In this document: piece by piece, positions 6,809-34,684 of the stretch | How positions within the stretch are numbered: the first letter of the stretch is position 1 | Layout of the letters: every line of letters begins with the position of its first letter | Assembly: GCA_012490745.1 (NCBI GenBank) | Contig: GCA_012490745.1_3925.1 | DNA from: a phage | Strand: one strand, 5' to 3' | Length of the DNA: 64,000 nucleotides | Notes under the pieces: generated by a model | Told to the model about the DNA's origin: nothing | Database searches by the model: none | What the model saw: only the letters and a program-made list of their open reading frames with translations | Program-made: the position numbers and the translations under genes

Positions 6809-7050
6809 TGACTTATGTGATTTACTCCAAAACTGGATGCCCTCAGTGTGAGACTGCAAAGAATTTTGCAAAAGCTCGTGGTATTGACCATGTTGTGAGA
6901 ATGTTAGGGCAGGACTATGAACTGTCAGACCTGATGGATATTGCACAGATGCCAGTTCGTCAGATGCCATTCATCATGAAAACTGATGGACAAAACCTAA
7001 AACCTGTTGGGACGCTACAGAATTTTATGGCAGAGGTGAATAATGCTTAA
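6808..7050 (+). CDS. glutaredoxin / NrdH-like redoxin
   Basis: 80 aa, N-terminal CPQC redox motif (VIYSKTGCPQCETAK); located between the nrd genes. Confidence 0.7.
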   Translation: MTYVIYSKTGCPQCETAKNFAKARGIDHVVRMLGQDYELSDLMDIAQMPVRQMPFIMKTDGQNLKPVGTLQNFMAEVNNA

Positions 7051-7249
7051 ACGCATTTGGGAAGGTTTGGTTGTCGATGCACCAGCTATTGTGATTGGTA
7101 TGCTGATTGTTAACCTATTTACTGATTTTGAACAAGGTTCATTGTTTGGGGCCATGTTACTATGGGTTATCTTTGAAATATTAGAGATACAGCTAGGCAT
7201 CACTGAAAAACTGAGAAAACTCGTTTCTAAGTTTTCTAAAAAGATTTAA
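7043..7249 (+). CDS. hypothetical small hydrophobic protein
   Basis: 68 aa, one predicted TM helix; ends before terminator. Confidence 0.3.
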   Translation: MLKRIWEGLVVDAPAIVIGMLIVNLFTDFEQGSLFGAMLLWVIFEILEIQLGITEKLRKLVSKFSKKI

Positions 7250-9465: not shown

Positions 9466-9849
9466 TTGATAGGCTTACATCACCTTTTTTATTGGAGTTG
9501 TATCATGGACTTGTGGCTTTATGTAGCAGTTTGTGGCCTTGCATGTCTCATCATATTAATCATTATCGGTGTCATGCGTTTTAAAGACATTATTTGCTCA
9601 GATTTTTGGCCTGAGTTTATCTTTAAAGCTATGGTAGTGGTATTCCTTATATTTTGTGCTTTTGTTGTATATGATTCGTATAAGGTAATGGCATGGATGG
9701 ATGCAAACAATTGTGTAAAAACCTCTCAAAACCGTGAGGTCACTTATTTTGTGAGCGTGCTTAGTGGGAGTACCACTATACTTGTTCCACAAACTTCTGT
9801 AGAATATCTTTACACATGTGATAATGGGAAAACTATATGGTGGAATTAA
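9466..9849 (+). CDS. hypothetical membrane protein
   Basis: Multiple hydrophobic segments; start codon uncertain. Confidence 0.3.
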   Translation: MIGLHHLFYWSCIMDLWLYVAVCGLACLIILIIIGVMRFKDIICSDFWPEFIFKAMVVVFLIFCAFVVYDSYKVMAWMDANNCVKTSQNREVTYFVSVLSGSTTILVPQTSVEYLYTCDNGKTIWWN

Positions 9850-10052
9850 TTATGTCTAAGCTTTTAAAGGTGTCGATACCCATACTGCATATAGCGGTAT
9901 TCTTCATTGGGGTTAGTGTCACAGTATGGGGTTTCTCAGACCCACAATGGGAGTTTTCATATCAGGGTCAGATGGATTTGTGGTCATGCTTCAAACCATT
10001 TTTAGGGTTAACTATTGCATTTTCTGCAATACCAACTAAGGTCAAATTATGA
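9837..10052 (+). CDS. hypothetical membrane protein
   Basis: 71 aa, two hydrophobic helices. Confidence 0.3.
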   Translation: MVELIMSKLLKVSIPILHIAVFFIGVSVTVWGFSDPQWEFSYQGQMDLWSCFKPFLGLTIAFSAIPTKVKL

Positions 10053-16001: not shown

Positions 16002-16337
16002 ATGAAAATCAAAGAAATGAACATCAACATTGTCTTAGAAGAACGTTGGGAGAACATCAAGAAGACTGAAGATGGTCATAAGTTCCTCAACAAAATTTTA
16101 GTAGCAGCTAAAGAAGAACTGACTGGAAAGGTTGCAGCAGCAATCACAATAAAGGTTTGTGTAAAAGGTCTTCCACAACATCACCAGTTTGCGCTTGACG
16201 AGTTTAAAAAAAGCTTCTACAATCCAAACAAACAGATGCTTGAAAGTAACTTTGCAGTATCTACAAGTATCGTTCATGACAGAAGCTTTATCCTTTACAA
16301 AAACATGAGAGGTGAGTCATGCAAGCATATTGGATAG
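16002..16337 (+). CDS. hypothetical protein
   Basis: ORF with SD GGAGAAAACT. Confidence 0.4.
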   Translation: MKIKEMNINIVLEERWENIKKTEDGHKFLNKILVAAKEELTGKVAAAITIKVCVKGLPQHHQFALDEFKKSFYNPNKQMLESNFAVSTSIVHDRSFILYKNMRGESCKHIG

Positions 16338-16495
16338 AAATTTTACTGTCACTTGGTAGTGTAGCAGTATTTGTCTACCTCCTTTGTAAGTACTTTGCAG
16401 AGCACAAAAAATGTGACTACTGTAATGGAGAGGGGTACATAAGGGCAGGTTGTTGCCCTATGTGTGGTGGTTCTGGTAAAATGTTTAATAAGTAA
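16319..16495 (+). CDS. hypothetical small zinc-ribbon protein (not in supplied ORF track, <60 aa)
   Basis: 58 aa; N-terminal TM segment plus CDYCNGEGYIRAGCCPMCGGSG (CxxC...CxxC); overlaps stop of upstream gene. Confidence 0.3.
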   Translation: MQAYWIEILLSLGSVAVFVYLLCKYFAEHKKCDYCNGEGYIRAGCCPMCGGSGKMFNK

Positions 16496-16523: not shown

Positions 16524-18890
16524 ATGCGCATGGTAAACGACCACGCAGAAGTGATTAAGAGTTCAACTTCTTTAGAGACGTCTCAAGCACAGATTACAAT
16601 GACACCTGAAATGTTCAGCCTTTTGAGTTCCGGTGTATACACATTTAAAGAAAGGGCAGTGATTCGTGAACTGTCATGTAACGCAGTAGATGCTCAAAAA
16701 GAAGCTGGAAAAGAGAACATCCCGTTCCATGTGCATTTACCTACTCGATTTGAGCCTTACTTTGAAGTCCGTGACTTTGGAACTGGTTTAACCCATGACA
16801 AAGTAATGAGTTTGTATCTGAACTATGGGGCTTCTACGAAGAATGACTCTAATGACTACATTGGTGCAATGGGTATCGGCTCAAAGTCACCGTTTGCGAT
16901 TGCTCAGTCATTCACAGTGTCTAGCTATGTTGATGGTGTTGTTAATAAGTACTCTGTTTACCTTGAGAATGGTATTCCTCAAGTAACTAAGCTTACTACT
17001 AACCAAACAAATGAACCTAATGGTTTAGCTGTACGTGTGGCAGTTGCTGACCACCGTATTTCAAAGTTCTTTGAAGAGGCTGGTAATGTATACTCATACT
17101 TTGCTGTAAAACCAGAGAGTAATGTGGAGTATAATGATATATTAGCAGATATGGATGTGATTGCTCGTGAAGAAGGTGTCTATGATGCCATGACTCATAA
17201 GCATAGCTGGCGTTCAAGCAGCAATAGAACAGAGTTTAACGTGGTTATGGGTAATATTGCCTACCCAGTTAATATGGAGGCATTACTTGGTGATGATTTC
17301 TTCAAAGTATTACCAGAATTTTTCCGCAGGAGCATAGACCTTGTAAACATCTACATGCCTATTGGTTCAGTTGCTATTGCAGCTTCTCGTGAAGCATTGC
17401 AGATGAATGACACGACAAAAAATGTTATCATCGAGGCTACTAAAAAGATAACTGAAGCAATTACAAAGGATGTTATCAAGAAAGTTAATAGTCAACCTAC
17501 ACTCATGGATGCTGCACAGGCTTATGCTGAGTTACGCTTGAACTCACGAGAGATGTTTAATGCTGTGTGTCCAAAGCTAGAGTGGGGAGGCGTTAAGCTT
17601 GATTCTCTGGAAGAAGAATTACTAAACATTCGTCGTGGGATTATCTACGCAGAAGACGGCTCAGTCATTTATGAACGTGACGGCAAAGGCAATATTAAGG
17701 TTGACAGCAAAGGAAACAATATCCCTAAAGTTGACTACCTATACAATCCAGTTGCTTATGTCAAGTTCAACTCTTTAGAGAGTAAGATTCGTGCAACAGC
17801 ACTTTCCTACACTCAAGAGGCAAGTATGTTCAATATCTTTGGTGCAATGCGTAAAAGTCAAATTGAACAGTTTTTGTTTGTTATTAATGACCGTCGCAAT
17901 AAAAACGGTACTGAGAAGACTGTAGGCCGCAATCAGATTCTGCGTGGTGCATGTCGAGACTACGCCAGTGAGTCCAGTCTGTTTCACAGATATAATGGCA
18001 TTGTGTTTGTATTCTCGACTGAAAAAGAGTTAGATGATTTAATCAATCTACACAAACTTGATAAAAGCTTGTTAAAGATTGTGAAAATGTCTGATAAGGA
18101 GCACCATTACCAGCGTAAAGAAGCTGTAAGGGGTGTTGTAAAACTCTGGAAAGCTGTTCCAGCAGAAGGTGTAGCTTCCTATAAAGAGGTTTCAGAGGAC
18201 TTTGATACAATTGAAGAGCCTCAGCTTTACATTAAGGCAGTTGGCGACACAGTTGATGGCGAATGTTTTTGCTCATCTCCAGAAGATGTAGCCAAGTCAG
18301 TTGCTAATGTTACAGGGAAGACAGTCTATGTTTTCCGAAAAGCAAATTGGAAAAAGATACCAGAAGACTGGATTGAAGTAGATGAGAAACTCTTGAACGA
18401 CAGCTTAACTGATGTTCATTGGATTAATCATAACAGATATATGACACGCATCTACATGAATGGTGTTCTTGACCTGACAAGCAGTTGGATTATTGCCAGA
18501 AACTTTACGTTCAATAACAGGAAGATTTCTCGTGGCTATTGCTATTCACGGGATACAAACAAAACTATCTTCCTAGAAGGAAATGAAGATGCTGTAGAGG
18601 CAATGTTTGGTAAAATCCAATACGTTGCTGCACCATTTGCATACACTTATACTATTAGTGTATTGAAAACTTTGAAAGACTGTCTTGACAATGATACAAA
18701 GCTTTACAAGAAAATTAAGAAAGCTGGTGACCGTATGGTCATTAAGGTGACAAACTACCTTTCAAAAAGAAAACAAGAAAACTTCTTGCTTTCTCATTTG
18801 GATTGGAATAAAGTGTCACCCATCGAAGTGAGTAAGTTCTTAGGCTTTGATGTAAAATGTGTTCCAGAAGGGACTACAATTTACGATTAA
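16524..18890 (+). CDS. rIIA: rIIA-like protein with GHKL-type ATPase N-terminal domain
   Basis: 788 aa; N-box-like RELSCNAVDA, G1-like VRDFGTGL, G2-like GAMGIGSKS in the order expected for a histidine-kinase-like ATPase fold as found in rIIA. Confidence 0.6.
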   Translation: MRMVNDHAEVIKSSTSLETSQAQITMTPEMFSLLSSGVYTFKERAVIRELSCNAVDAQKEAGKENIPFHVHLPTRFEPYFEVRDFGTGLTHDKVMSLYLNYGASTKNDSNDYIGAMGIGSKSPFAIAQSFTVSSYVDGVVNKYSVYLENGIPQVTKLTTNQTNEPNGLAVRVAVADHRISKFFEEAGNVYSYFAVKPESNVEYNDILADMDVIAREEGVYDAMTHKHSWRSSSNRTEFNVVMGNIAYPVNMEALLGDDFFKVLPEFFRRSIDLVNIYMPIGSVAIAASREALQMNDTTKNVIIEATKKITEAITKDVIKKVNSQPTLMDAAQAYAELRLNSREMFNAVCPKLEWGGVKLDSLEEELLNIRRGIIYAEDGSVIYERDGKGNIKVDSKGNNIPKVDYLYNPVAYVKFNSLESKIRATALSYTQEASMFNIFGAMRKSQIEQFLFVINDRRNKNGTEKTVGRNQILRGACRDYASESSLFHRYNGIVFVFSTEKELDDLINLHKLDKSLLKIVKMSDKEHHYQRKEAVRGVVKLWKAVPAEGVASYKEVSEDFDTIEEPQLYIKAVGDTVDGECFCSSPEDVAKSVANVTGKTVYVFRKANWKKIPEDWIEVDEKLLNDSLTDVHWINHNRYMTRIYMNGVLDLTSSWIIARNFTFNNRKISRGYCYSRDTNKTIFLEGNEDAVEAMFGKIQYVAAPFAYTYTISVLKTLKDCLDNDTKLYKKIKKAGDRMVIKVTNYLSKRKQENFLLSHLDWNKVSPIEVSKFLGFDVKCVPEGTTIYD

Positions 18891-18895
18891 AGTGT

Positions 18896-18925
18896 TTGAC
18901 AAGGGGCTTCAAAGCCCCTTAAAAT
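18896..18925 (+). promoter_or_regulatory. sigma70-like promoter with palindrome in spacer (TTGACA-18-TAAAAT)
   Basis: TTGACA at 18896-18901, 18-nt spacer consisting of palindrome AGGGGCTTCAAAGCCCCT, TAAAAT at 18920-18925. Confidence 0.4.
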
Positions 18926-18969
18926 GGCATCACAAAATGATTTATTAACTAACAAGAGAGAGTAATAAG

Positions 18970-20079
18970 ATGACTACTAAAACTAAAGCACAGATTGACG
19001 CAGAAATTTACAAACTGGTTAAAGAGGGCAAGCTGACTAAAACCGCTATTGCACAGAAATTTAACACCTCAACCCGTTCAGTCGGTCGTGCTGTAGAGCG
19101 TCATGAAGCAACCTTAAAAGGGAATAAGAAGGTGACTTCTACACCAGCTACGAAGACTTTGAAGCAAGTTGCTAAGACCTTTAAAAAGAAAGCTGACAAA
19201 CCAGTTGAAAAGGTTGTTAAAGATGCTGTACAGAAAGCTCCAGTAAATAAACTGCATGAAGCTATGCAGAAAGATGACAAGATTGAGTACATGATTACTG
19301 GTGACTCTGTAATTATGACTTACGGTTCAGAGTCTGAAATTGTTGAATCTACTCATCCGAACTATCAAGAGATTGTAGTTCATGTTGTGAAAGGTGAGTT
19401 TAAGAAAGCCTTTGAACTGATGAACATTCGTAAGTCTATCGAAAACTTCACTCAGGGTGCTATCACAATCAAAGGCGACAAACTATTCTACGGTGCTGTT
19501 GAGATGCGTTCTACTCTGGTTGACCGTATTCTTCACATGATGAAGACTGGAGATAAAGGTTTCGAACGCCTTGTGATGTTCTTCGAAAAACTGATGGAAA
19601 ACCCATCTAAAGATTCCGTAGAACAACTTTGGGGCTTCGTATCTCACCTTGATGTTGAAATTGATGAAGAAGGCTACATCATTGGTTGGAAGAAAGTATC
19701 TACTCGTGAAGGCAAGCTGGTTGACTCCCACACCTACAGAGTACCTAATGATTTGGGTAACATTGTAGAAATGCCACGTTGGATGGTTGATAATAACCGT
19801 AACGTGACTTGCTCTCAAGGTCTTCATGTTGGTGCTTGGGATTATGTTCGTTGTTTCTCAGGTGATACAATTCTGAAGGTTCGTGTCCATCCACGAGACG
19901 TTGTATCCGTACCAACTGATTACAACGATATGAAGATGCGCTCGTCTCGTTATGAAGTTGCAGCAATCGTTGATAATCAACGTAAAGTGCTGAAAGCATG
20001 GGATGGCAAGACTGAAGCTTTACATGTCATCGTTGGTACTGCTGGAGAACTTATCTCCCAACGTAAACGTGAAATCTAA
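18970..20079 (+). CDS. rIIB: rIIB-like protein
   Basis: 369 aa immediately downstream of the rIIA-like gene; assignment mainly by synteny and size. Confidence 0.45.
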   Translation: MTTKTKAQIDAEIYKLVKEGKLTKTAIAQKFNTSTRSVGRAVERHEATLKGNKKVTSTPATKTLKQVAKTFKKKADKPVEKVVKDAVQKAPVNKLHEAMQKDDKIEYMITGDSVIMTYGSESEIVESTHPNYQEIVVHVVKGEFKKAFELMNIRKSIENFTQGAITIKGDKLFYGAVEMRSTLVDRILHMMKTGDKGFERLVMFFEKLMENPSKDSVEQLWGFVSHLDVEIDEEGYIIGWKKVSTREGKLVDSHTYRVPNDLGNIVEMPRWMVDNNRNVTCSQGLHVGAWDYVRCFSGDTILKVRVHPRDVVSVPTDYNDMKMRSSRYEVAAIVDNQRKVLKAWDGKTEALHVIVGTAGELISQRKREI

Positions 20080-20094
20080 TAAGTAATTTCTTAA

Positions 20095-20120
20095 AAGGCT
20101 GCTTCGGCGGCCTTTTTTAT
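20095..20120 (+). terminator. rho-independent terminator (GGCTGC-TTCG-GCGGCC + T6)
   Basis: GC stem with TTCG loop and TTTTTT. Confidence 0.7.
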
Positions 20121-20148
20121 TTGTATTTTGTGCAGAGTGCTGTATAAT
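20121..20148 (+). promoter_or_regulatory. sigma70-like promoter (TTGTAT-16-TATAAT, TG upstream of -10)
   Basis: Perfect TATAAT at 20143-20148 preceded by TG; -35-like TTGTAT at 20121-20126. Confidence 0.45.
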
Positions 20149-20179
20149 TGTTGTCACGATAAACTAAACAGGAGAACCA

Positions 20180-20728
20180 ATGAAGAAATTGATTCTAGGT
20201 TTGTGCTTAATGTTTACAGCACACTTATCTTATGCAGTTGACTGCCCAGAGCTATCAATTAGCCAAAAAGTAAACATGTTAAAAGCTTACCAGTATGGTG
20301 AGAATAACATGGGTAAAGGTTGGGGTATCACTCTAGCTGCTATAGCCTTACAAGAGTCAGAGTTAGGTCTGAAGGTAGAGAATAAAAAGACACATGATTA
20401 TGGTATTTTCCAGAATCACTTGAAGACTGTTGTAAAGCGTAACAAAATTAGTCCTAATGTGGCTAAAAAGAAACTCTTAAGAGACTTTGACTATGCTGCA
20501 AAGGAAACGCACAAAGAACTTGAATTTTGGACAAAGGTGCATGGTCAGCCAAAGTCAAAGAAAACTTTACAAAAAGTTTTAGCATCATATAATGCTGGGT
20601 ATTCGTACAGAATCCCTAAAGCTAAAAAATATTCTCAAGATGTCTATAACAACATGAAAGTTATCGCTCAATGTGAATTTGCAACAAACATTTCTAAGGT
20701 AAATCATGAAAAAATTAAGAAAGTCTGA
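20180..20728 (+). CDS. secreted protein with possible lytic-transglycosylase (SLT-like) domain
   Basis: Signal peptide MKKLILGLCLMFTAHLSYA; AIALQESELG...DYGIFQN resembles the SLT E-S ... G-L/I-x-Q motifs. Confidence 0.4.
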   Translation: MKKLILGLCLMFTAHLSYAVDCPELSISQKVNMLKAYQYGENNMGKGWGITLAAIALQESELGLKVENKKTHDYGIFQNHLKTVVKRNKISPNVAKKKLLRDFDYAAKETHKELEFWTKVHGQPKSKKTLQKVLASYNAGYSYRIPKAKKYSQDVYNNMKVIAQCEFATNISKVNHEKIKKV

Positions 20729-21401
20729 TGAAGTACTGTGTCATGCTTATGACTTACATCCTCATGAGTTAGGTCTTGATTCCTGTGTATGGACTCCAGA
20801 ACAGTGTAGGGATTTTGAAGACACTGCAAGAGAAGTTGTATGTTCACTTGAAGAGTTTCACACATCAGAGCCAATTGTGAATGTTGTAGATAAAGAGACT
20901 GGACAAACTATAGGGGTAAGTCGTGATAGTTTAGTCATAGTCAATAAAGACCTTGTAGAAAAAGGTAACCTCATCTTAGCAGATATTGATGGTGTTCTTA
21001 CAAATTTTAATCACGAAGATTGCTCAACGGAATTGACTGATGGGTCATTCTCACAGTACACTAATCTTCTTGACTCTGTAAGAGCAAAACCAACGTATGT
21101 TTTTAGTATTATTGATGCAATTGCTAATCATGCTGCCATTGGACTCTTGACAGCGAGAGGTGAATCTCAGAGAATACCTACTGAGATGTTTTTAAGGCAT
21201 AACATAGAGCATGACTACATGCTTTTTATGCGTGGTTTTGGAACTAACTCTATAAGTGCAGAAAGTTTGAAAGTGAGGATGATTCAGTCTTGCATCCTGC
21301 CTTACTTTAATATAGTATGTTTTATAGAAGACACAGAGAAGAATGTGCAGAAGGTGAACAGAATCCTTCCACACATTAAAACCATGTTAGTTAAACATTG
21401 A
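20706..21401 (+). CDS. hypothetical protein
   Basis: ORF overlapping upstream stop. Confidence 0.4.
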   Translation: MKKLRKSDEVLCHAYDLHPHELGLDSCVWTPEQCRDFEDTAREVVCSLEEFHTSEPIVNVVDKETGQTIGVSRDSLVIVNKDLVEKGNLILADIDGVLTNFNHEDCSTELTDGSFSQYTNLLDSVRAKPTYVFSIIDAIANHAAIGLLTARGESQRIPTEMFLRHNIEHDYMLFMRGFGTNSISAESLKVRMIQSCILPYFNIVCFIEDTEKNVQKVNRILPHIKTMLVKH

Positions 21402-21411
21402 GAGAAAACTT

Positions 21412-21876
21412 ATGAACAATATCATTACGGTAGCACTGGACGATACGGTAAACAAATCCGCAGTAGTTCGTAAAATGATTCAAGGTAACTTTGAAGGTAA
21501 AATTTTTCGTGCTGTTAATGTAAAAGCTGATGGCAGCATTCGTGAATATCGTGCATTGTTGAACGTTAAGAAGCACGTAAAAGGTGTTGGTTCAACGACT
21601 GCACACAAAGAAAACCTGATGACTATCTATGATATGGGTAAGGCTTCAGAGTTAGGTGCTGAAGGTATCGTTAAAGAAGGTGCTCCGTATCGCTCTTTCA
21701 ATCTGGAAACTACTCTTATGCTTTCCTTTACAAGTGGTTCCAAAACAATCACTTATCTCTTTACTGATGCTGCAACGGTATCTGCTATTAAGGATAGCAC
21801 TGTCAAAGCTGGCGTAGTTGCTGCTGCAAAAGCTTCTTCGATGGCTGCGAATATCCTTGCTAAAGTCCTCGGTTAA
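21412..21876 (+). CDS. hypothetical protein
   Basis: ORF followed by strong terminator. Confidence 0.45.
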   Translation: MNNIITVALDDTVNKSAVVRKMIQGNFEGKIFRAVNVKADGSIREYRALLNVKKHVKGVGSTTAHKENLMTIYDMGKASELGAEGIVKEGAPYRSFNLETTLMLSFTSGSKTITYLFTDAATVSAIKDSTVKAGVVAAAKASSMAANILAKVLG

Positions 21877-21885
21877 GGTTAAGAT

Positions 21886-21910
21886 ACAGGCTCCTTCGGG
21901 AGCCTTTTTC
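21886..21910 (+). terminator. rho-independent terminator (AGGCTCC-TTCG-GGAGCCT + T5)
   Basis: Perfect stem and TTCG loop, TTTTT. Confidence 0.75.
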
Positions 21911-21928
21911 ATTTCAGGAGATTGTTAA

Positions 21929-22276
21929 ATGACATTTAAAGAGTTCTGTCAAGCTACTTTCATAATTGTTTTCTTAGTTGGGGCGGGTGTCTGGGGAGGG
22001 TACTCTTACAGAGACTACCAAGTTGCTGAAACTGAGCTAAACAATCAAAAGCTCATAAGTGTTGCTAAAGATGCTTATCAGGAAGGATTAGTTACACTGA
22101 GCGCCAATTACAAAAATGATTTGAAAGATGTGCTTGCTAAGAATAAGCACACAAAAGAGGTACTAACATATGAAAAAACTAAGCCAGAGTTTTATAATGT
22201 TTGTGTTACTGATAATTATGTCAGGGTGTTCAACGAACAAAGTGAACAGTACATTCAAAAACTCCCAAGTAAGTGA
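21929..22276 (+). CDS. i-spanin-like protein (Rz-like)
   Basis: N-terminal TM helix (FIIVFLVGAGVWGG) followed by charged helical periplasmic region; the next gene starts inside it in another frame. Confidence 0.4.
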   Translation: MTFKEFCQATFIIVFLVGAGVWGGYSYRDYQVAETELNNQKLISVAKDAYQEGLVTLSANYKNDLKDVLAKNKHTKEVLTYEKTKPEFYNVCVTDNYVRVFNEQSEQYIQKLPSK

Positions 22277-22439
22277 GAGTGATAAGTACACTCAAGAAGA
22301 ATCACGGTATATCATCAAAGGCAACACAGGCAGTGATGTAGCAGCAGCACTTGAGTTCTACCGTGACGGCTTTTACCAGTGTACAATTAAAGCTAATAAC
22401 CTTATTGACATGATTTTATTAGGGAATAAGCAGCAATGA
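22170..22439 (+). CDS. o-spanin-like lipoprotein (Rz1-like), embedded/overlapping in a different frame
   Basis: Signal peptide with lipobox-like IIMSGC; start lies within the preceding ORF. Confidence 0.4.
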   Translation: MKKLSQSFIMFVLLIIMSGCSTNKVNSTFKNSQVSESDKYTQEESRYIIKGNTGSDVAAALEFYRDGFYQCTIKANNLIDMILLGNKQQ

Positions 22440-22705
22440 CAGAGAATCAAGACACTTTCTATGTAGAAGGTTACTTACTGTTGCCACGACCAAAAGAAAC
22501 TTATATGCGAATCGATTTCTTACCAACCATTATGGATAATGTGATGTGTCATATCTTTATGCAAGGTGTCACAGCACAGCTTAAGCATGTTGGTAAAGAT
22601 TGCAAAATAAAGGTTGACACTCATCCAGAAATCAAAGAGAATCACTACACATGGTTCTTACCAGATTCTAAAGAAATCTTAGCAGTTCTTAAAACGAGGA
22701 AGTAA
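22436..22705 (+). CDS. hypothetical protein
   Basis: ORF, ATGA overlap. Confidence 0.4.
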   Translation: MTENQDTFYVEGYLLLPRPKETYMRIDFLPTIMDNVMCHIFMQGVTAQLKHVGKDCKIKVDTHPEIKENHYTWFLPDSKEILAVLKTRK

Positions 22706-22707
22706 CT

Positions 22708-23034
22708 ATGCAGATTAATGGAAGAGACTTTGTAGCCGTTTACTACGAGAAAGATAAAGAAGTTGGCGTAGCACAAGTAACTTACGGCAATGGTAAGTGG
22801 CTATATGGAACAATTGCAGTGGTCGGAACAAGAAGTGACACAAAAACTTTTAAAGATTGTGTTGACCTTCTTGAAGAATCCATTCAGAATCATTGGTGTC
22901 TGATATGGATGACTGACAACGAAGTGATAGAACGCTTCAAAAAGATTGATATCAACATTGATAGTATTGAGCATGTTGATTTATATGAGCTAACTGAGAA
23001 GGTAAACTATGAAAGTAATACTAGCCAGAGATAA
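22708..23034 (+). CDS. hypothetical protein
   Basis: ORF. Confidence 0.4.
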   Translation: MQINGRDFVAVYYEKDKEVGVAQVTYGNGKWLYGTIAVVGTRSDTKTFKDCVDLLEESIQNHWCLIWMTDNEVIERFKKIDINIDSIEHVDLYELTEKVNYESNTSQR

Positions 23035-23236
23035 AAAGACACGAAAGCTTATCAGGTCAGCAGTGTTCATTGGACGAAATGAGGTCATCCCATTTACAGC
23101 AAATGATGTGATAGCTTACAGGAAGAACTTAGTATTCACTGACTGCTTACGTGGCTTCATCTCTGAACCATTGGAAGACTTTAAAAGTCGTTGTGGTAAA
23201 GGTATCATCATTCAAGAGGCAATTATTCATGGCTGA
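23009..23236 (+). CDS. hypothetical protein
   Basis: ORF. Confidence 0.3.
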   Translation: MKVILARDKKTRKLIRSAVFIGRNEVIPFTANDVIAYRKNLVFTDCLRGFISEPLEDFKSRCGKGIIIQEAIIHG

Positions 23237-23429
23237 CTTCTGTAAAGATTGTTCTATCGAAATGTTCGGACGTGATACAGGTGACTTAAAAGGTCTTATC
23301 ACTGAAGATGACTTTAAAGCTGGCTACGCAATGCCAGTAATCTGTGAAGGTTGTGGGTGCGTCTGGGTAGACCACGAAGGGCAACGTGTAAAACCTTCAG
23401 AAGATAAAGAATCTTGGGAGAGATGTTAA
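23229..23429 (+). CDS. hypothetical small Cys-rich protein
   Basis: 66 aa from ATG 23229; CKDC ... CEGCGC pairs suggest a Zn ribbon. Confidence 0.35.
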   Translation: MADFCKDCSIEMFGRDTGDLKGLITEDDFKAGYAMPVICEGCGCVWVDHEGQRVKPSEDKESWERC

Positions 23430-24215
23430 ATGGGTATTGTAAAAATCATCAATGGCGATATCTTTGCAGCATTTGATAAAGGTAAGTTTGACATCATTGG
23501 TCACGGTTGCAACTGTATGAATTTAATGGGTGCAGGTATCGCTGACAAGATTTCTAAACTTTACCCAAAAGCATATGAGACCGATACAGAAGTTTACCTC
23601 TATGCAGGTGGTATAGGTCACAAACCCTGTGAAAATCTACTGGGTAATTTCTCTGTAGCACGTTTAGAACAAGGCCGTATAGCTAACCTTTACACTCAGC
23701 TTAAGACTGGTAAAGATGCCCGATACAGTGCTTTAGAGTCATCTTTGAAACAACTTAACAGATACTGTGAAGTCAATCAGTTGAAGAAAGTTGGGTTACC
23801 TATGATTGGTGCAGGTATCGGTGGACTAGACCCTCAAGCCGTCACAGTTATCATTAATCAGGTGATGAAGAGTGTAGATGTGTATCTTTATGTCTACGAA
23901 GGAGAGATGTACCACAAGTTACGCTCAGGTTGGAAGAACTACTGTGAACCAGAATACTTTGCAGGTGTAGCAGTGTTCACAGATAACGCAGTTACCCTCT
24001 TCAGACGAAGAAAAGGTAAGATACATCAAAGTAACCCTCCGGTTGAAAAGATGTCTCTAAGTAACGCTCTAGTTACCCACCTGTCGAAGAGCAATCACAG
24101 GATTGCAGTAACATTTGGCAGTGATGCAGATACTTATATCTATGCAAGAACTGATGAGGATATCGAGACAGTTTTCTCTTCACCAGAAGTTACCTTCTTA
24201 GACGCAAAGAACTAA
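23430..24215 (+). CDS. macro-domain protein (ADP-ribose binding/processing)
   Basis: INGDIFAAFDKGKFDIIGHGCNCMNLMGAGIADKI and VGLPMIGAGIGGLDPQ resemble the two Gly-rich macro-domain signature blocks; about 100-aa C-terminal extension. Confidence 0.55.
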   Translation: MGIVKIINGDIFAAFDKGKFDIIGHGCNCMNLMGAGIADKISKLYPKAYETDTEVYLYAGGIGHKPCENLLGNFSVARLEQGRIANLYTQLKTGKDARYSALESSLKQLNRYCEVNQLKKVGLPMIGAGIGGLDPQAVTVIINQVMKSVDVYLYVYEGEMYHKLRSGWKNYCEPEYFAGVAVFTDNAVTLFRRRKGKIHQSNPPVEKMSLSNALVTHLSKSNHRIAVTFGSDADTYIYARTDEDIETVFSSPEVTFLDAKN

Positions 24216-34150: not shown

Positions 34151-34684
34151 CTATAATTGTAGGTTGCATTCTTTACTTACCTCTTCAAGTTTAACTTCAG
34201 AGTCCTTAAGTCGTTTCTTATGAACTATGAATCTTAGTAGTGAGATTATGATACCAGCTAAAGGAACAGCATACAAGTACCAAACATCATATACCTTTGC
34301 AGTAATCTGTGTAATAGTCAAGTCTTGAGCTATGTAGCTGATTGCTGATACGGCTAGTAATGTTGCTAAGAAGAAAACCAGTATCATAGCAATATTCAGA
34401 CAACCTCTGGCATGGTATTCATGCTTAATGCACTTATTCTTCTCTTCAACAACACTGTTGTAGTCATTTGTAAAGTCTCTGTAGAAAGCTTTTAAGTATT
34501 CTTGAGTGTAGCCTTCAAAGCAACCTGTACCGTACCAATAATCACCACCAAAATGTGCTATGATACCAGTATCCCCATTTGGTTTGGTTACTCTTAGTGA
34601 AGTATGATGACCAGTCTTCTGATAATCTATCTTGTATCTTTCTTCGTAAATCATTTCCCAACCCCTCTCAATCGTTTGTTCCAC
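34151..34684 (-). CDS. hypothetical membrane protein
   Basis: 177 aa; two C-terminal hydrophobic helices. Confidence 0.4.
   Translation of the reverse strand: MEQTIERGWEMIYEERYKIDYQKTGHHTSLRVTKPNGDTGIIAHFGGDYWYGTGCFEGYTQEYLKAFYRDFTNDYNSVVEEKNKCIKHEYHARGCLNIAMILVFFLATLLAVSAISYIAQDLTITQITAKVYDVWYLYAVPLAGIIISLLRFIVHKKRLKDSEVKLEEVSKECNLQL

What the first reader, a model, noticed from the sequence alone, without database searches (positions are those of the whole stretch)
20180..22439. Probable lysis cluster: secreted SLT-like protein and overlapping spanin-like gene pair, separated from the lysozyme
ORF 20180-20728 has a signal peptide and E-S ... G-I-F-Q motifs reminiscent of lytic transglycosylases. 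ORF 21929-22276 has an N-terminal TM helix and helical periplasmic region, and a lipoprotein-like ORF (lipobox IIMSGC) starts inside it in another frame, as in Rz/Rz1 spanins. The T4-type lysozyme lies 15 kb away on the other strand, so the phage may carry two muralytic enzymes or a split lysis system. No holin was identified.
Basis: partly seen in the sequence, partly recalled or inferred. Interest (0 to 1): 0.45.

Follow-up and report, generated by a model that had tools for sequence, protein, structure and literature searches.

The report
Felix O1-type spanins plus Vs.1-like transglycosylase
This stretch of a Felix O1-like phage genome carries a genuine, already catalogued pair of overlapping outer-membrane-disruption (spanin) genes and, 1.2 kb upstream, a secreted cell-wall-cutting enzyme that is the counterpart of the uncharacterised phage T4 gene vs.1; it is ordinary for this phage group rather than a new lysis system.

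The parts
20093..20116 (+). Terminator-like GC-rich hairpin plus T-run after rIIB; it closes the rIIA-rIIB unit upstream of the SLT-like gene
   Evidence: Consensus scan, 10-bp stem with 5 GC pairs; sequence read. Function is inferred, not shown.
20121..20148 (+). Promoter-like TTGTAT-16 nt-TATAAT, 31 nt upstream of the SLT-like start codon
   Evidence: My reading of the sequence. The tool did not call it because the -35 element is weak. Inference only.
20180..20728 (+). Vs.1-family secreted GH23 (SLT-type) lytic transglycosylase, 182 aa; Sec signal peptide residues 1-19 (nt 20180-20236); catalytic Glu59
21888..21905 (+). Terminator-like hairpin (AGGCTCC-TTCG-GGAGCCT plus T-run) 23 nt before the i-spanin start
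   Evidence: A terminator is also annotated here in phage Meda's record (H39). Function is inferred.
21929..22276 (+). i-spanin, 115 aa: N-terminal transmembrane segment (residues 6-24), periplasmic domain, conserved C-terminal motif KPxF(Y/T)NVCxTDxYVxxFNE with Cys92
   Evidence: PHROG 1152 'Rz-like spanin' E=2e-41. 33-34% identity to i-spanins of Kuravirus Paul and Yersinia peduovirus vB_YenM_324, E=3e-16 and 3e-13. Listed in the JH2 i-spanin family in PMC6139136. Hydropathy.
22170..22439 (+). o-spanin, 89 aa, +1 frame, overlapping the i-spanin by 107 nt: lipoprotein signal MKKLSQSFIMFVLLIIMSG|C20, Ser at +2, conserved periplasmic Cys71
   Evidence: PHROG 4180 E=3e-51 and PHROG 456 'Rz-like spanin' E=2e-4. 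28% identity to the phage Paul o-spanin, E=6e-12. Homologue present in 80 of 80 loci, with a lipobox in the 73 of 80 that my rule-based filter could score. Purifying selection and reduced diversity in the overlap. Shine-Dalgarno AGAGGT upstream.
37527..37991 (-). Soluble GH24 (T4/P22-type) endolysin, 154 aa, no signal or SAR segment; the principal muralytic lysis enzyme, encoded 15 kb away
   Evidence: PHROG 7 endolysin E=8e-58. E15-x8-D24-x5-T30 read from the sequence. No hydrophobic segment. Felix O1 gp35 'lysin' in PMC3185647.

Best explanation
The interval holds two independent envelope-directed modules of a Felix O1-like virulent myophage, not one cassette.

(A) Genes 21929-22276 and 22170-22439 encode a two-component spanin. 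The i-spanin is anchored in the inner membrane by its N-terminal helix. The o-spanin is a lipoprotein whose Cys20 is lipid-modified, and Ser at +2 predicts sorting to the outer membrane. The two would bind through their periplasmic domains (each has one conserved periplasmic cysteine) to form a bridge across the periplasm. After the soluble GH24 endolysin (37527-37991, minus strand) is let through by a still unidentified holin and destroys the murein, the spanin complex would fuse the inner and outer membranes, which is the last step of lysis. As in T4, the lysis genes are dispersed.

(B) Gene 20180-20728 encodes a Sec-exported periplasmic GH23 lytic transglycosylase of the T4 Vs.1 family. It is probably made from its own promoter in an early or middle gene block. 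I infer that it cuts glycan strands in a limited way, independent of the holin, as an accessory murein-remodelling enzyme. It would not be the endolysin and not a virion enzyme.

Shown here: gene structure, homology, fold, motif conservation, selection on both frames, gene contexts. Inferred: lipidation, membrane topology, membrane fusion, enzymatic activity, timing and physiological role.
For: Spanins:
- PHROG 1152 E=2e-41.
- Homology to i- and o-spanins of phiEco32-like and P2-like phages.
- In 45-49 of 52 P2-like loci the pair follows holin and endolysin homologues directly.
- All 80 of 80 loci keep the +1-frame lipoprotein ORF.
- dN/dS-like ratio about 0.10 in each gene and a 3-5-fold diversity drop in the overlap.
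- Shine-Dalgarno site before ATG 22170.
- Already catalogued as an overlapped spanin family including Felix01, wV8, UAB_Phi87, Moogle and phiEco32 (PMC6139136).
- Annotated as i-/o-spanin in many relatives.
- Dispersed lysis genes are stated for Felix O1-like phages (PMC4319497; PMC6486253; PMC3185647).

SLT-like protein:
- PHROG 600 E=1e-57, and T4 vs.1 is also PHROG 600 (PMC11879866 supplement).
- Pairwise E=2e-16 to T4 Vs.1.
- Motif residues invariant across 14 homologues down to 30% identity and in 21 of 21 Felix-like variants.
- Best PDB profile hit is EtgA.
- The viral structure library returns small SLT proteins of T4-like phages.
- N-terminal signal-like segments appear in all aligned homologues.
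- A Cys22/Cys165 pair is present together or absent together in most homologues, which fits a periplasmic disulfide.
- Gene context is early or DNA-metabolism in T4, Cba120, SUMAE and L087.
Against: - There are no functional data for this phage.
- Knock-down of the SUSP1 orthologues of the SLT-like gene and of both spanins scored 'Not Fit' in liquid culture. That is expected for spanins, but it gives no positive support.
- The window's SLT-like protein on its own misses the Pfam SLT gathering score (18.9 versus 21.3 bits) and has no single-sequence PDB hit.
- The single-sequence i-spanin model is low-confidence (pLDDT 46), so the helical periplasmic domain is only weakly supported.
- Promoter, terminators and expression timing come from consensus reading only.
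- The -3 Met of the lipobox is less common than Leu.
- No holin has been identified, so the lysis pathway is incomplete.
Confidence: 0.82

Rival explanations
1. The SLT-like protein is a second, Sec-exported endolysin. It accumulates in the periplasm and is unleashed at the end of infection, for example by membrane depolarisation, so that together with the spanins downstream it forms a genuine lysis module.
For: It has a GH23 fold with an intact catalytic Glu and a signal peptide. No canonical holin has been found in Felix O1-like phages. It lies 1.2 kb from the spanins on the same strand. Nolan et al. suggested 'some role in cell lysis' for vs.1. T4 vs.1 knock-down is 'Semi-Fit'.
Against: The homologue in T4 is far from every lysis gene, and the gene sits in early or DNA-metabolism contexts in four phage groups. 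It co-occurs with this spanin family only in Felix-like genomes. Two unrelated genes and a terminator-like hairpin separate it from the spanins. The phage already has a canonical soluble GH24 endolysin. From established T4 genetics (my own knowledge), e-minus T4 does not lyse although vs.1 is intact, so a Vs.1-type enzyme is not sufficient as an endolysin. The SUSP1 orthologue is 'Not Fit'.
Confidence: 0.12
2. The SLT-like protein is a virion-associated murein hydrolase used during DNA injection, like T7 gp16, PRD1 P7 or phiKZ gp144.
Against: A conserved cleavable Sec signal would send it to the periplasm of the producing cell, away from assembling virions. It is not among the 17 Felix O1 structural proteins found by proteomics; Felix O1 gp3 is absent from the list (with gene numbering). 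It is a small single-domain protein encoded beside rIIB in a non-structural block.
Confidence: 0.03
3. The +1-frame ORF 22170-22439 is not expressed, or is not a lipoprotein, and the 115-aa membrane protein acts alone or has a function other than lysis.
For: No direct expression data exist. Several GenBank records omit the ORF or start it at the Met just before the lipobox, which removes the signal peptide. The o-spanin has no proline, unlike lambda Rz1.
Against: There is strong purifying selection on the non-overlapping 162 nt and reduced diversity in the overlap. A Shine-Dalgarno site sits at the right distance. The homologue is kept in all 80 of 80 loci across three phage groups, with the lipobox and C-terminal Cys motif retained in the 73 loci my filter could score. 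The pair follows holin and endolysin in P2-like phages.
Confidence: 0.03

Closest known systems
JH2 / phiEco32 / Felix O1 two-component spanin family (Kongari et al. 2018, SpaninDB)
   Same: This is the family the window pair belongs to. It shares the overlapped +1-frame architecture, the i-spanin C-terminal motif KPxFxNVCxTDxYVxxFNE, and the o-spanin lipobox (M/L)S(G/A)C-S/T with the C-terminal Y..C.(A/K).(H/N)N.L motif.
   Different: The Felix O1-type o-spanin has one periplasmic Cys (C71), whereas the phiEco32-like and P2-like members have two or three. Its overlap is 107 nt, against 116-191 nt in the others.
Phage P2 LysB/LysC and lambda Rz/Rz1 spanins
   Same: Same functional class: a type II inner-membrane protein plus an outer-membrane lipoprotein encoded in another frame of the same DNA. 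P2 shares the 'overlapped' layout.
   Different: Lambda Rz1 is fully embedded and proline-rich. Here the o-spanin extends 163 nt beyond the i-spanin stop and has no proline. There is no detectable sequence similarity: Pfam gives nothing significant for either protein.
Phage T4 PseT.3/PseT.2 spanins and the T4 dispersed lysis system
   Same: The spanins lie beside a pseT-type (polynucleotide kinase/phosphatase) gene and far from the endolysin. The sizes are similar (117/99 aa versus 115/89 aa). Lysis genes are scattered, and rIIA/rIIB are present.
   Different: The T4 genes are separated, not overlapped. There is no sequence similarity apart from the lipoprotein signal. The PHROGs differ: 739/812 versus 1152/4180.
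Phage T4 Vs.1 (PHROG 600)
   Same: Homologous over the full length (32% identity, E=2e-16), about 181 aa, with an N-terminal signal-like segment, the SLT motifs ES / G.FQ / SYN.G, and a location in a non-structural early-type gene block.
   Different: The Felix-type protein has a Cys22/Cys165 pair that T4 Vs.1 lacks. Its neighbours are rIIB and pnk rather than regB and vs.
Specialised small lytic transglycosylases of secretion systems (EtgA, IagB, IpgF, VirB1, P19)
   Different: Similarity is distant (about 20% identity). No secretion-system partner is evident. This is an analogy of architecture, not family membership.

Membership tests
Two-component spanin (functional class) | i-spanin: small protein with a single N-terminal transmembrane segment and a periplasmic C-terminal domain | tested here: met
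   Kyte-Doolittle 19-residue window peak of 1.75 at residues 6-24, with nothing elsewhere. The helical nature of the periplasmic part is only weakly supported (AF2 single sequence, all-helical, pLDDT 46).
Two-component spanin (functional class) | o-spanin: lipoprotein signal with a lipobox Cys and no Asp at +2 (outer-membrane sorting) | tested here: met
   MKKLSQSFIMFVLLIIMSG|C20-S21. The 73 of 80 related loci that my rule-based filter could score all show the pattern [MLIT][SC][GAS]C followed by S or T. Lipidation itself was not tested.
Two-component spanin (functional class) | The two genes are adjacent, overlapped or embedded, and both are under selection | tested here: met
   +1 frame, 107-nt overlap. 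dN/dS-like ratio about 0.10 for each gene, and pi of 0.021 in the overlap versus 0.058 and 0.096 in the flanks.
Two-component spanin (functional class) | At least one periplasmic cysteine for intermolecular disulfide bonds (507 of 528 systems in Kongari 2018) | tested here: met
   i-spanin C92 is invariant in the 'NVC' motif. o-spanin C71 is conserved. The statistic is from PMC6139136. Bond formation was not tested.
Two-component spanin (functional class) | Genetic linkage with holin and endolysin in at least some genomes | tested here: met
   Homologues in the Yersinia peduovirus follow an annotated holin and endolysin. 45-49 of 52 P2-like loci have homologues of those two genes directly upstream. 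There is no such linkage in this window.
Two-component spanin (functional class) | Required for outer-membrane disruption; complements lambda Rz/Rz1 mutants | not testable with these tools
   Needs the lambda Rz-am Rz1-am complementation assay in Mg2+. The SUSP1 knock-downs were 'Not Fit' in liquid culture, which is uninformative for spanins.
JH2/phiEco32/Felix O1 spanin sequence family | Significant sequence similarity to catalogued members | tested here: met
   i-spanin E=3e-16 and o-spanin E=6e-12 to Kuravirus Paul. Family list is in PMC6139136. About 99% identity to UAB_Phi87 and wV8.
Lambda Rz/Rz1 family | o-spanin gene wholly embedded in the i-spanin gene; proline-rich Rz1 | tested here: not met
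   The o-spanin ends 163 nt after the i-spanin stop and has 0 Pro.
T4 PseT.3/PseT.2 family | Sequence similarity to PseT.3 and PseT.2 | tested here: not met
   BLASTP gives no alignment for the i-spanin. For the o-spanin only the signal peptide aligns (E=0.038).
GH23 / SLT family 1 lytic transglycosylase | Match to Pfam PF01464 above the gathering score | tested here: inconclusive
   The window protein scores 18.9 bits against a cut-off of 21.3. Its homologues T4 Vs.1, P0015, P0019 and P0020 score 25.1-45.2 bits.
GH23 / SLT family 1 lytic transglycosylase | Catalytic Glu-Ser motif, G-x-x-Q motif and (A/S)-Y-N-x-G motif | tested here: met
   E59, Q78, Y137, N138 and G140 are invariant; S60, G75 and S136 are at least 90% conserved in 14 homologues. 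All are invariant in 21 Felix-like variants. There is no conserved second acidic residue, which favours a transglycosylase over a goose-type hydrolase (alignment; inference).
GH23 / SLT family 1 lytic transglycosylase | Lysozyme-like GH23 fold | tested here: met
GH23 / SLT family 1 lytic transglycosylase | Cleaves MurNAc-GlcNAc bonds with formation of 1,6-anhydroMurNAc | not testable with these tools
   Needs a purified-enzyme assay with muropeptide LC-MS.
T4 Vs.1 family (PHROG 600) | Full-length match to the family profile and to T4 Vs.1 | tested here: met
   PHROG 600 E=1.1e-57, covering residues 1-170 of the protein against profile positions 1-176 of 178. T4 Vs.1 E=2e-16 over 174 aa. T4 vs.1 and SUSP1 agp083 are both assigned to phrog_600.
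Canonical phage endolysin (for the SLT-like protein) | Cytoplasmic or SAR-anchored accumulation with holin-controlled release, linked to a holin or other lysis genes | tested here: not met
   The short hydrophobic core (13 residues) with a S-Y-A site indicates a cleavable Sec signal, not a SAR segment (inference). No holin is adjacent. The context is early or DNA-metabolism genes in four phage groups.

The most novel reading that the evidence does not exclude
The Vs.1-family protein (20180-20728) is a so far unrecognised, widely conserved infection function. In this reading it is a holin-independent periplasmic lytic transglycosylase that virulent phages (Felix O1-like, T4-like, Vi1-like, some jumbo phages; more than 2,100 records) export early to recondition the host sacculus. 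It might pre-weaken the wall so that lysis is abrupt once the holin fires, let infected cells enlarge, or clear murein for periplasm-spanning phage complexes such as the spanins. That would add a fourth player to Gram-negative phage lysis and envelope takeover. The evidence does not exclude this: the catalytic site and export signal are conserved, T4 vs.1 knock-down is 'Semi-Fit', and no function has been assigned.
Probability: 0.3. Interest if true: 0.55.

Novelty: already known. Interest (0 to 1): 0.2.

Why it matters
For genome annotation the value is modest but practical.
- It confirms that the correct o-spanin start is ATG 22170. Several deposited genomes truncate the signal peptide or omit the gene.
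- 'Putative lysin' and 'hypothetical protein' labels on the SLT-like gene should read 'Vs.1-like secreted lytic transglycosylase (GH23)'.

Biologically, the only open question touched here is the role of the Vs.1 family. It is conserved in thousands of virulent phage genomes, is probably catalytically competent and exported, is mildly important in T4, and has no assigned function. Felix O1-like phages are used in Salmonella and E. coli biocontrol, so knowing their complete lysis gene set matters for engineering. The holin is still missing.

Tried and rejected
1. T4 PseT.3/PseT.2 homology for the spanins. I suspected this because of the neighbouring pnk-type gene. BLASTP found nothing beyond the lipoprotein signal, so I rejected it.
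2. Pfam on both spanins gave only sub-threshold noise.
3. Single-sequence phmmer of the SLT-like protein against the PDB gave 0 hits. Only the 14-sequence profile reached EtgA and goose-type lysozymes.
4. The idea that the SLT-like gene and the spanins are an evolutionary unit. tblastn over 80 spanin loci shows the SLT-like gene only in the 23 Felix-like loci. Contexts in T4, Cba120, SUMAE and metagenomic contigs show no lysis neighbours. Rejected.
5. Holin hunt. A hydropathy scan gave five or six small membrane ORFs, but PHROGs calls them all 'unknown function' or 'membrane protein', and no deposited record annotates 7043-7249 as a holin. Unresolved.
6. The single-sequence AlphaFold model of the i-spanin has pLDDT 46, which is too weak to use as evidence for a coiled coil.
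7. My first lipobox filter missed 7 of 80 loci. tblastn showed the o-spanin homologue is present in all of them, so the misses came from start-codon and charge rules in my filter, not from biology.
8. One of 22 distinct SLT gene copies was not read as intact by my ungapped extraction. I did not resolve whether this is an indel or a pseudogene.
Full report
**Identity of the window.** The 2.9 kb around the finding is 100 % identical to Felixounavirus LF110P2 and 92-99 % identical to more than 200 Felix O1-like phages of Escherichia, Salmonella, Shigella and Citrobacter. Around the finding the gene order on the + strand is:
- rIIA, 16524-18890
- rIIB, 18970-20079
- SLT-like ORF, 20180-20728
- 'polynucleotide kinase'-like ORF, 20706-21401
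- ORF of unknown function, 21412-21876
- membrane ORF, 21929-22276, with an overlapping +1-frame ORF, 22170-22439
- several small ORFs
- a macro-domain phosphatase, 23430-24215

**Check of the observation.**
- The 182-aa ORF begins MKKLILGLCLMFTAHLSYA|VD and contains QE59S60ELG, YG75IFQ78N and S136YNAG140.
- The 115-aa ORF has one hydrophobic segment, residues 6-24.
- The 89-aa ORF starts 241 nt into it in the +1 frame, shares 107 nt with it, and begins MKKLSQSFIMFVLLIIMSGC-S.
- The lysozyme is at 37527-37991 on the minus strand. It has the E-x8-D-x5-T arrangement of GH24 phage lysozymes, no hydrophobic segment, and matches PHROG 7 'endolysin' at E=8e-58.

The lipoprotein ORF runs 163 nt beyond the stop of the membrane ORF, so the pair is 'overlapped' (the P2 LysB/LysC type), not 'embedded' (the lambda Rz/Rz1 type).

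**Is the overlapping ORF real?** Four lines of evidence say yes.
1. A Shine-Dalgarno sequence (AGAGGT) lies 8 nt before ATG 22170. The internal Met17 that some GenBank records use as the start has none.
2. Among 23 distinct Felix-like sequences, the 162 nt of the ORF that lie outside the i-spanin gene show 45 synonymous and 19 nonsynonymous differences, where random change would offer 94 and 383. That is a ratio of about 0.10, the same as the i-spanin-only part (57 versus 22 observed; 153 versus 570 possible). Nucleotide diversity falls from 0.058 and 0.096 in the flanks to 0.021 in the doubly coding 107 nt.
3. A scan of IMG/VR with an i-spanin alignment returned 80 loci: 23 Felix-like, 5 phiEco32-like (Kuravirus) and 52 from contigs of roughly 30 kb that look P2-like. 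A rule-based search found a +1-frame lipoprotein ORF overlapping the 3' end of the i-spanin homologue in 73 of them. tblastn showed the homologue is present in all 80.
4. The only part of this region that cross-matches unrelated phages at the DNA level (about 80 % over 68 nt) is the doubly coding stretch.

**What the pair is.**
- The membrane protein matches PHROG 1152 'Rz-like spanin' (E=2e-41).
- It is 33-34 % identical (E=3e-16 and 3e-13) to the annotated i-spanins of Kuravirus Paul and of the Yersinia peduovirus vB_YenM_324. They share an invariant C-terminal motif, KPxFxNVCxTDxYVxxFNE.
- The lipoprotein is 28 % identical (E=6e-12) to Paul's o-spanin and shares its C-terminal Y..C...N.L motif.
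- In the Yersinia phage the pair follows annotated holin and endolysin genes. In 45-49 of the 52 P2-like loci, homologues of those two genes lie immediately upstream.
- The i-spanin and the o-spanin each keep one periplasmic cysteine (C92 and C71), in line with the near-universal cysteine requirement reported for spanins.
- There is no sequence similarity to T4 PseT.3/PseT.2 beyond the lipoprotein signal, even though T4's spanins also sit next to its pseT gene.

**This is already published.** Kongari et al. 2018 list Felix01, FO1a, wV8, UAB_phi87, FSL_SP-010/012/107, Moogle and PhiEco32 together in the 'JH2' i-spanin family and place Felix01 among overlapped architectures (PMC6139136). Many deposited genomes annotate 'i-spanin' and 'o-spanin' at exactly these genes. 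The Moogle and Meda genome notes state that in Felix O1-like phages the endolysin, spanins and (putative) holin are scattered rather than in a cassette. The Felix O1 genome paper made the T4 comparison in 2010.

**The SLT-like protein.**
- On its own it misses Pfam's SLT threshold (18.9 versus 21.3 bits) and finds nothing in the PDB by sequence.
- Its homologues found in the 5.8-billion-protein set include members that carry the precomputed SLT domain.
- In a 14-sequence alignment reaching down to 30 % identity, the three family-1 transglycosylase motifs are invariant or nearly so: E59, S60; G75, Q78; S136, Y137, N138, G140. Y151 is also invariant.
- The profile's best PDB hit is EtgA, the small secreted transglycosylase of the EPEC type III system, followed by goose-type lysozymes.
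- An AlphaFold model built on that alignment is confident (pLDDT 84, core above 90).
- Foldseek's first 40 PDB hits are all GH23 enzymes.
- No second acidic residue is conserved, which favours a transglycosylase over a hydrolase mechanism (inference).
- All aligned homologues have an N-terminal signal-like segment. The Cys22/Cys165 pair is present together in the Ounavirinae-type members and absent together in three of the five most distant homologues (the other two keep cysteines elsewhere) and in T4 Vs.1, as expected of a periplasmic disulfide.
- Within Felix-like phages the gene is under purifying selection (ratio 0.14) and essentially universal.

**Its real relatives.**
- The protein matches PHROG 600 over its full length (E=1e-57).
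- tblastn finds relatives in 2,124 phage records: T4-like phages of Escherichia, Klebsiella, Aeromonas, Acinetobacter and Vibrio, Vi1-like phages and others.
- The T4 member is vs.1 (181 aa), which is 32 % identical (E=2e-16) and passes Pfam's SLT cut-off.
- The viral structure library likewise returns small 'SLT domain' proteins of T4-like phages as best matches.
- In 2025 vs.1 was still listed as a gene of 'purely unknown function'. It was 'Semi-Fit' when knocked down in T4, while the orthologue in the Ounavirinae phage SUSP1 (agp083) was 'Not Fit' (PMC11879866 supplements).

**Is it part of a lysis cluster?** The evidence says no.
- Terminator-like hairpins follow rIIB (20093-20116) and precede the i-spanin (21888-21905).
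- A TTGTAT-16-TATAAT element precedes the SLT-like gene.
- On sequence grounds the units are therefore rIIA-rIIB | SLT-pnk-orf154 | spanins and onward.
- The SLT-like gene accompanies this spanin family only in Felix-like genomes (23/23, against 0/5 and 0/52).
- In a much more divergent phage (37 % identity) the order rIIA-rIIB-x-SLT-HAD phosphatase...macro is kept.
- In T4 the gene lies between regB and vs, in Cba120 beside gp46/gp47, and in Vibrio phage SUMAE beside dexA. These are always early or nucleic-acid-metabolism surroundings and never a lysis cassette.
- From established T4 genetics (my own knowledge, not tested here), e-minus T4 fails to lyse although vs.1 is intact, so this kind of enzyme is not a sufficient endolysin.
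- It is also absent from the Felix O1 virion proteome.

**Most likely mechanism.** Lysis in this phage follows the T4 pattern with dispersed genes:
1. An unidentified holin permeabilises the inner membrane.
2. The soluble GH24 endolysin (37527-37991) degrades the murein.
3. The i-spanin/o-spanin complex (21929-22439), pre-assembled across the periplasm, fuses the inner and outer membranes.

Separately, the Vs.1-type enzyme is exported by Sec, probably earlier in infection, and makes limited cuts in the glycan strands. I take it to be an accessory wall-remodelling factor whose precise benefit is unknown. Gene structure, homology, fold, conserved motifs and selection are shown. Lipidation, topology, fusion, catalysis, timing and role are inferred.

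**Verdict.** It is wrong in the lambda-like 'embedded' analogy and in treating the SLT-like gene and the spanins as one lysis cluster. The finding rediscovers annotated and published features, so novelty is 'already known' and interest is low (0.2). The one genuinely open item is the function of the Vs.1 family.

Noticed in passing
window 7043-7249 (+); 34151-34684 (-); 9466-9849 (+); 9837-10052 (+); 16319-16495 (+): Small membrane-protein ORFs that could include the missing holin. ORF 7043-7249 (68 aa) has two transmembrane segments and a basic C-terminus like a class II holin. ORF 34151-34684 (177 aa) has two C-terminal transmembrane segments and lies 3 kb from the endolysin on the same strand. 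ORF 16319-16495 (58 aa) has one transmembrane segment plus CxxC...CxxC, just upstream of rIIA. PHROGs labels all of them 'unknown function' or 'membrane protein'.
   Followed up: partly
L001 5320-5541 (phage radambza); L006 2574-2762 (Yersinia phage vB_YenM_324): Deposited o-spanin annotations start at the Met immediately before the lipobox (MSGC...). That removes the whole signal peptide. Other records omit the gene. The Shine-Dalgarno site and conservation support the upstream start, which is ATG 22170 in the window.
   Followed up: yes
window 20706-21401 (+): The ORF annotated 'polynucleotide kinase' in relatives (231 aa, PHROG 3970) has a HAD-type DIDGV motif but no P-loop (no G-x4-GK[ST]). 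Only its residues 84-219 match T4-type Pnk profiles. It looks like the 3'-phosphatase half only. It overlaps the SLT-like ORF by 23 nt.
   Followed up: partly
window 16524-24215 versus T4 (L004, L093): Genes that are scattered over the T4 genome are contiguous within 8 kb here: rIIA/rIIB, vs.1, a pseT-type gene, the spanins, and the tk.4 macro-domain phosphatase (PHROG 335). The same order recurs in a distant relative (L087).
   Followed up: partly
window 22169-22236; L005 2501-2568; L006 2501-2574: The doubly coding start of the o-spanin gene is about 80% identical at the DNA level to phiEco32-like podophages and a P2-like Yersinia phage, while the rest of the region shows no DNA similarity to them. 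This points either to extreme constraint from dual coding or to exchange of the spanin module between phage families.
   Followed up: partly
L090 6001-6582 and 8019-9953: A Vs.1-family homologue (P0020) lies on a 215-kb contig deposited as Campylobacter coli that also encodes a chimallin (PhiKZ-type phage nucleus shell) protein. This suggests a jumbo phage inside a bacterial assembly.
   Followed up: no
phage records GU169904 (Staphylococcus phage SA1) and MG065664 (Campylobacter phage A132): Records named for Staphylococcus and Campylobacter phages carry 82-90% identical copies of a Felix O1-like membrane protein gene (and of the finding's region). The records are probably contaminated or mislabelled.
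   Followed up: no
window 21412-21876 (+): The 154-aa ORF between the 'pnk' gene and the spanins (PHROG 2267, unknown function) is labelled 'tail assembly protein' in a few deposited genomes. I saw no support for that label.
   Followed up: no
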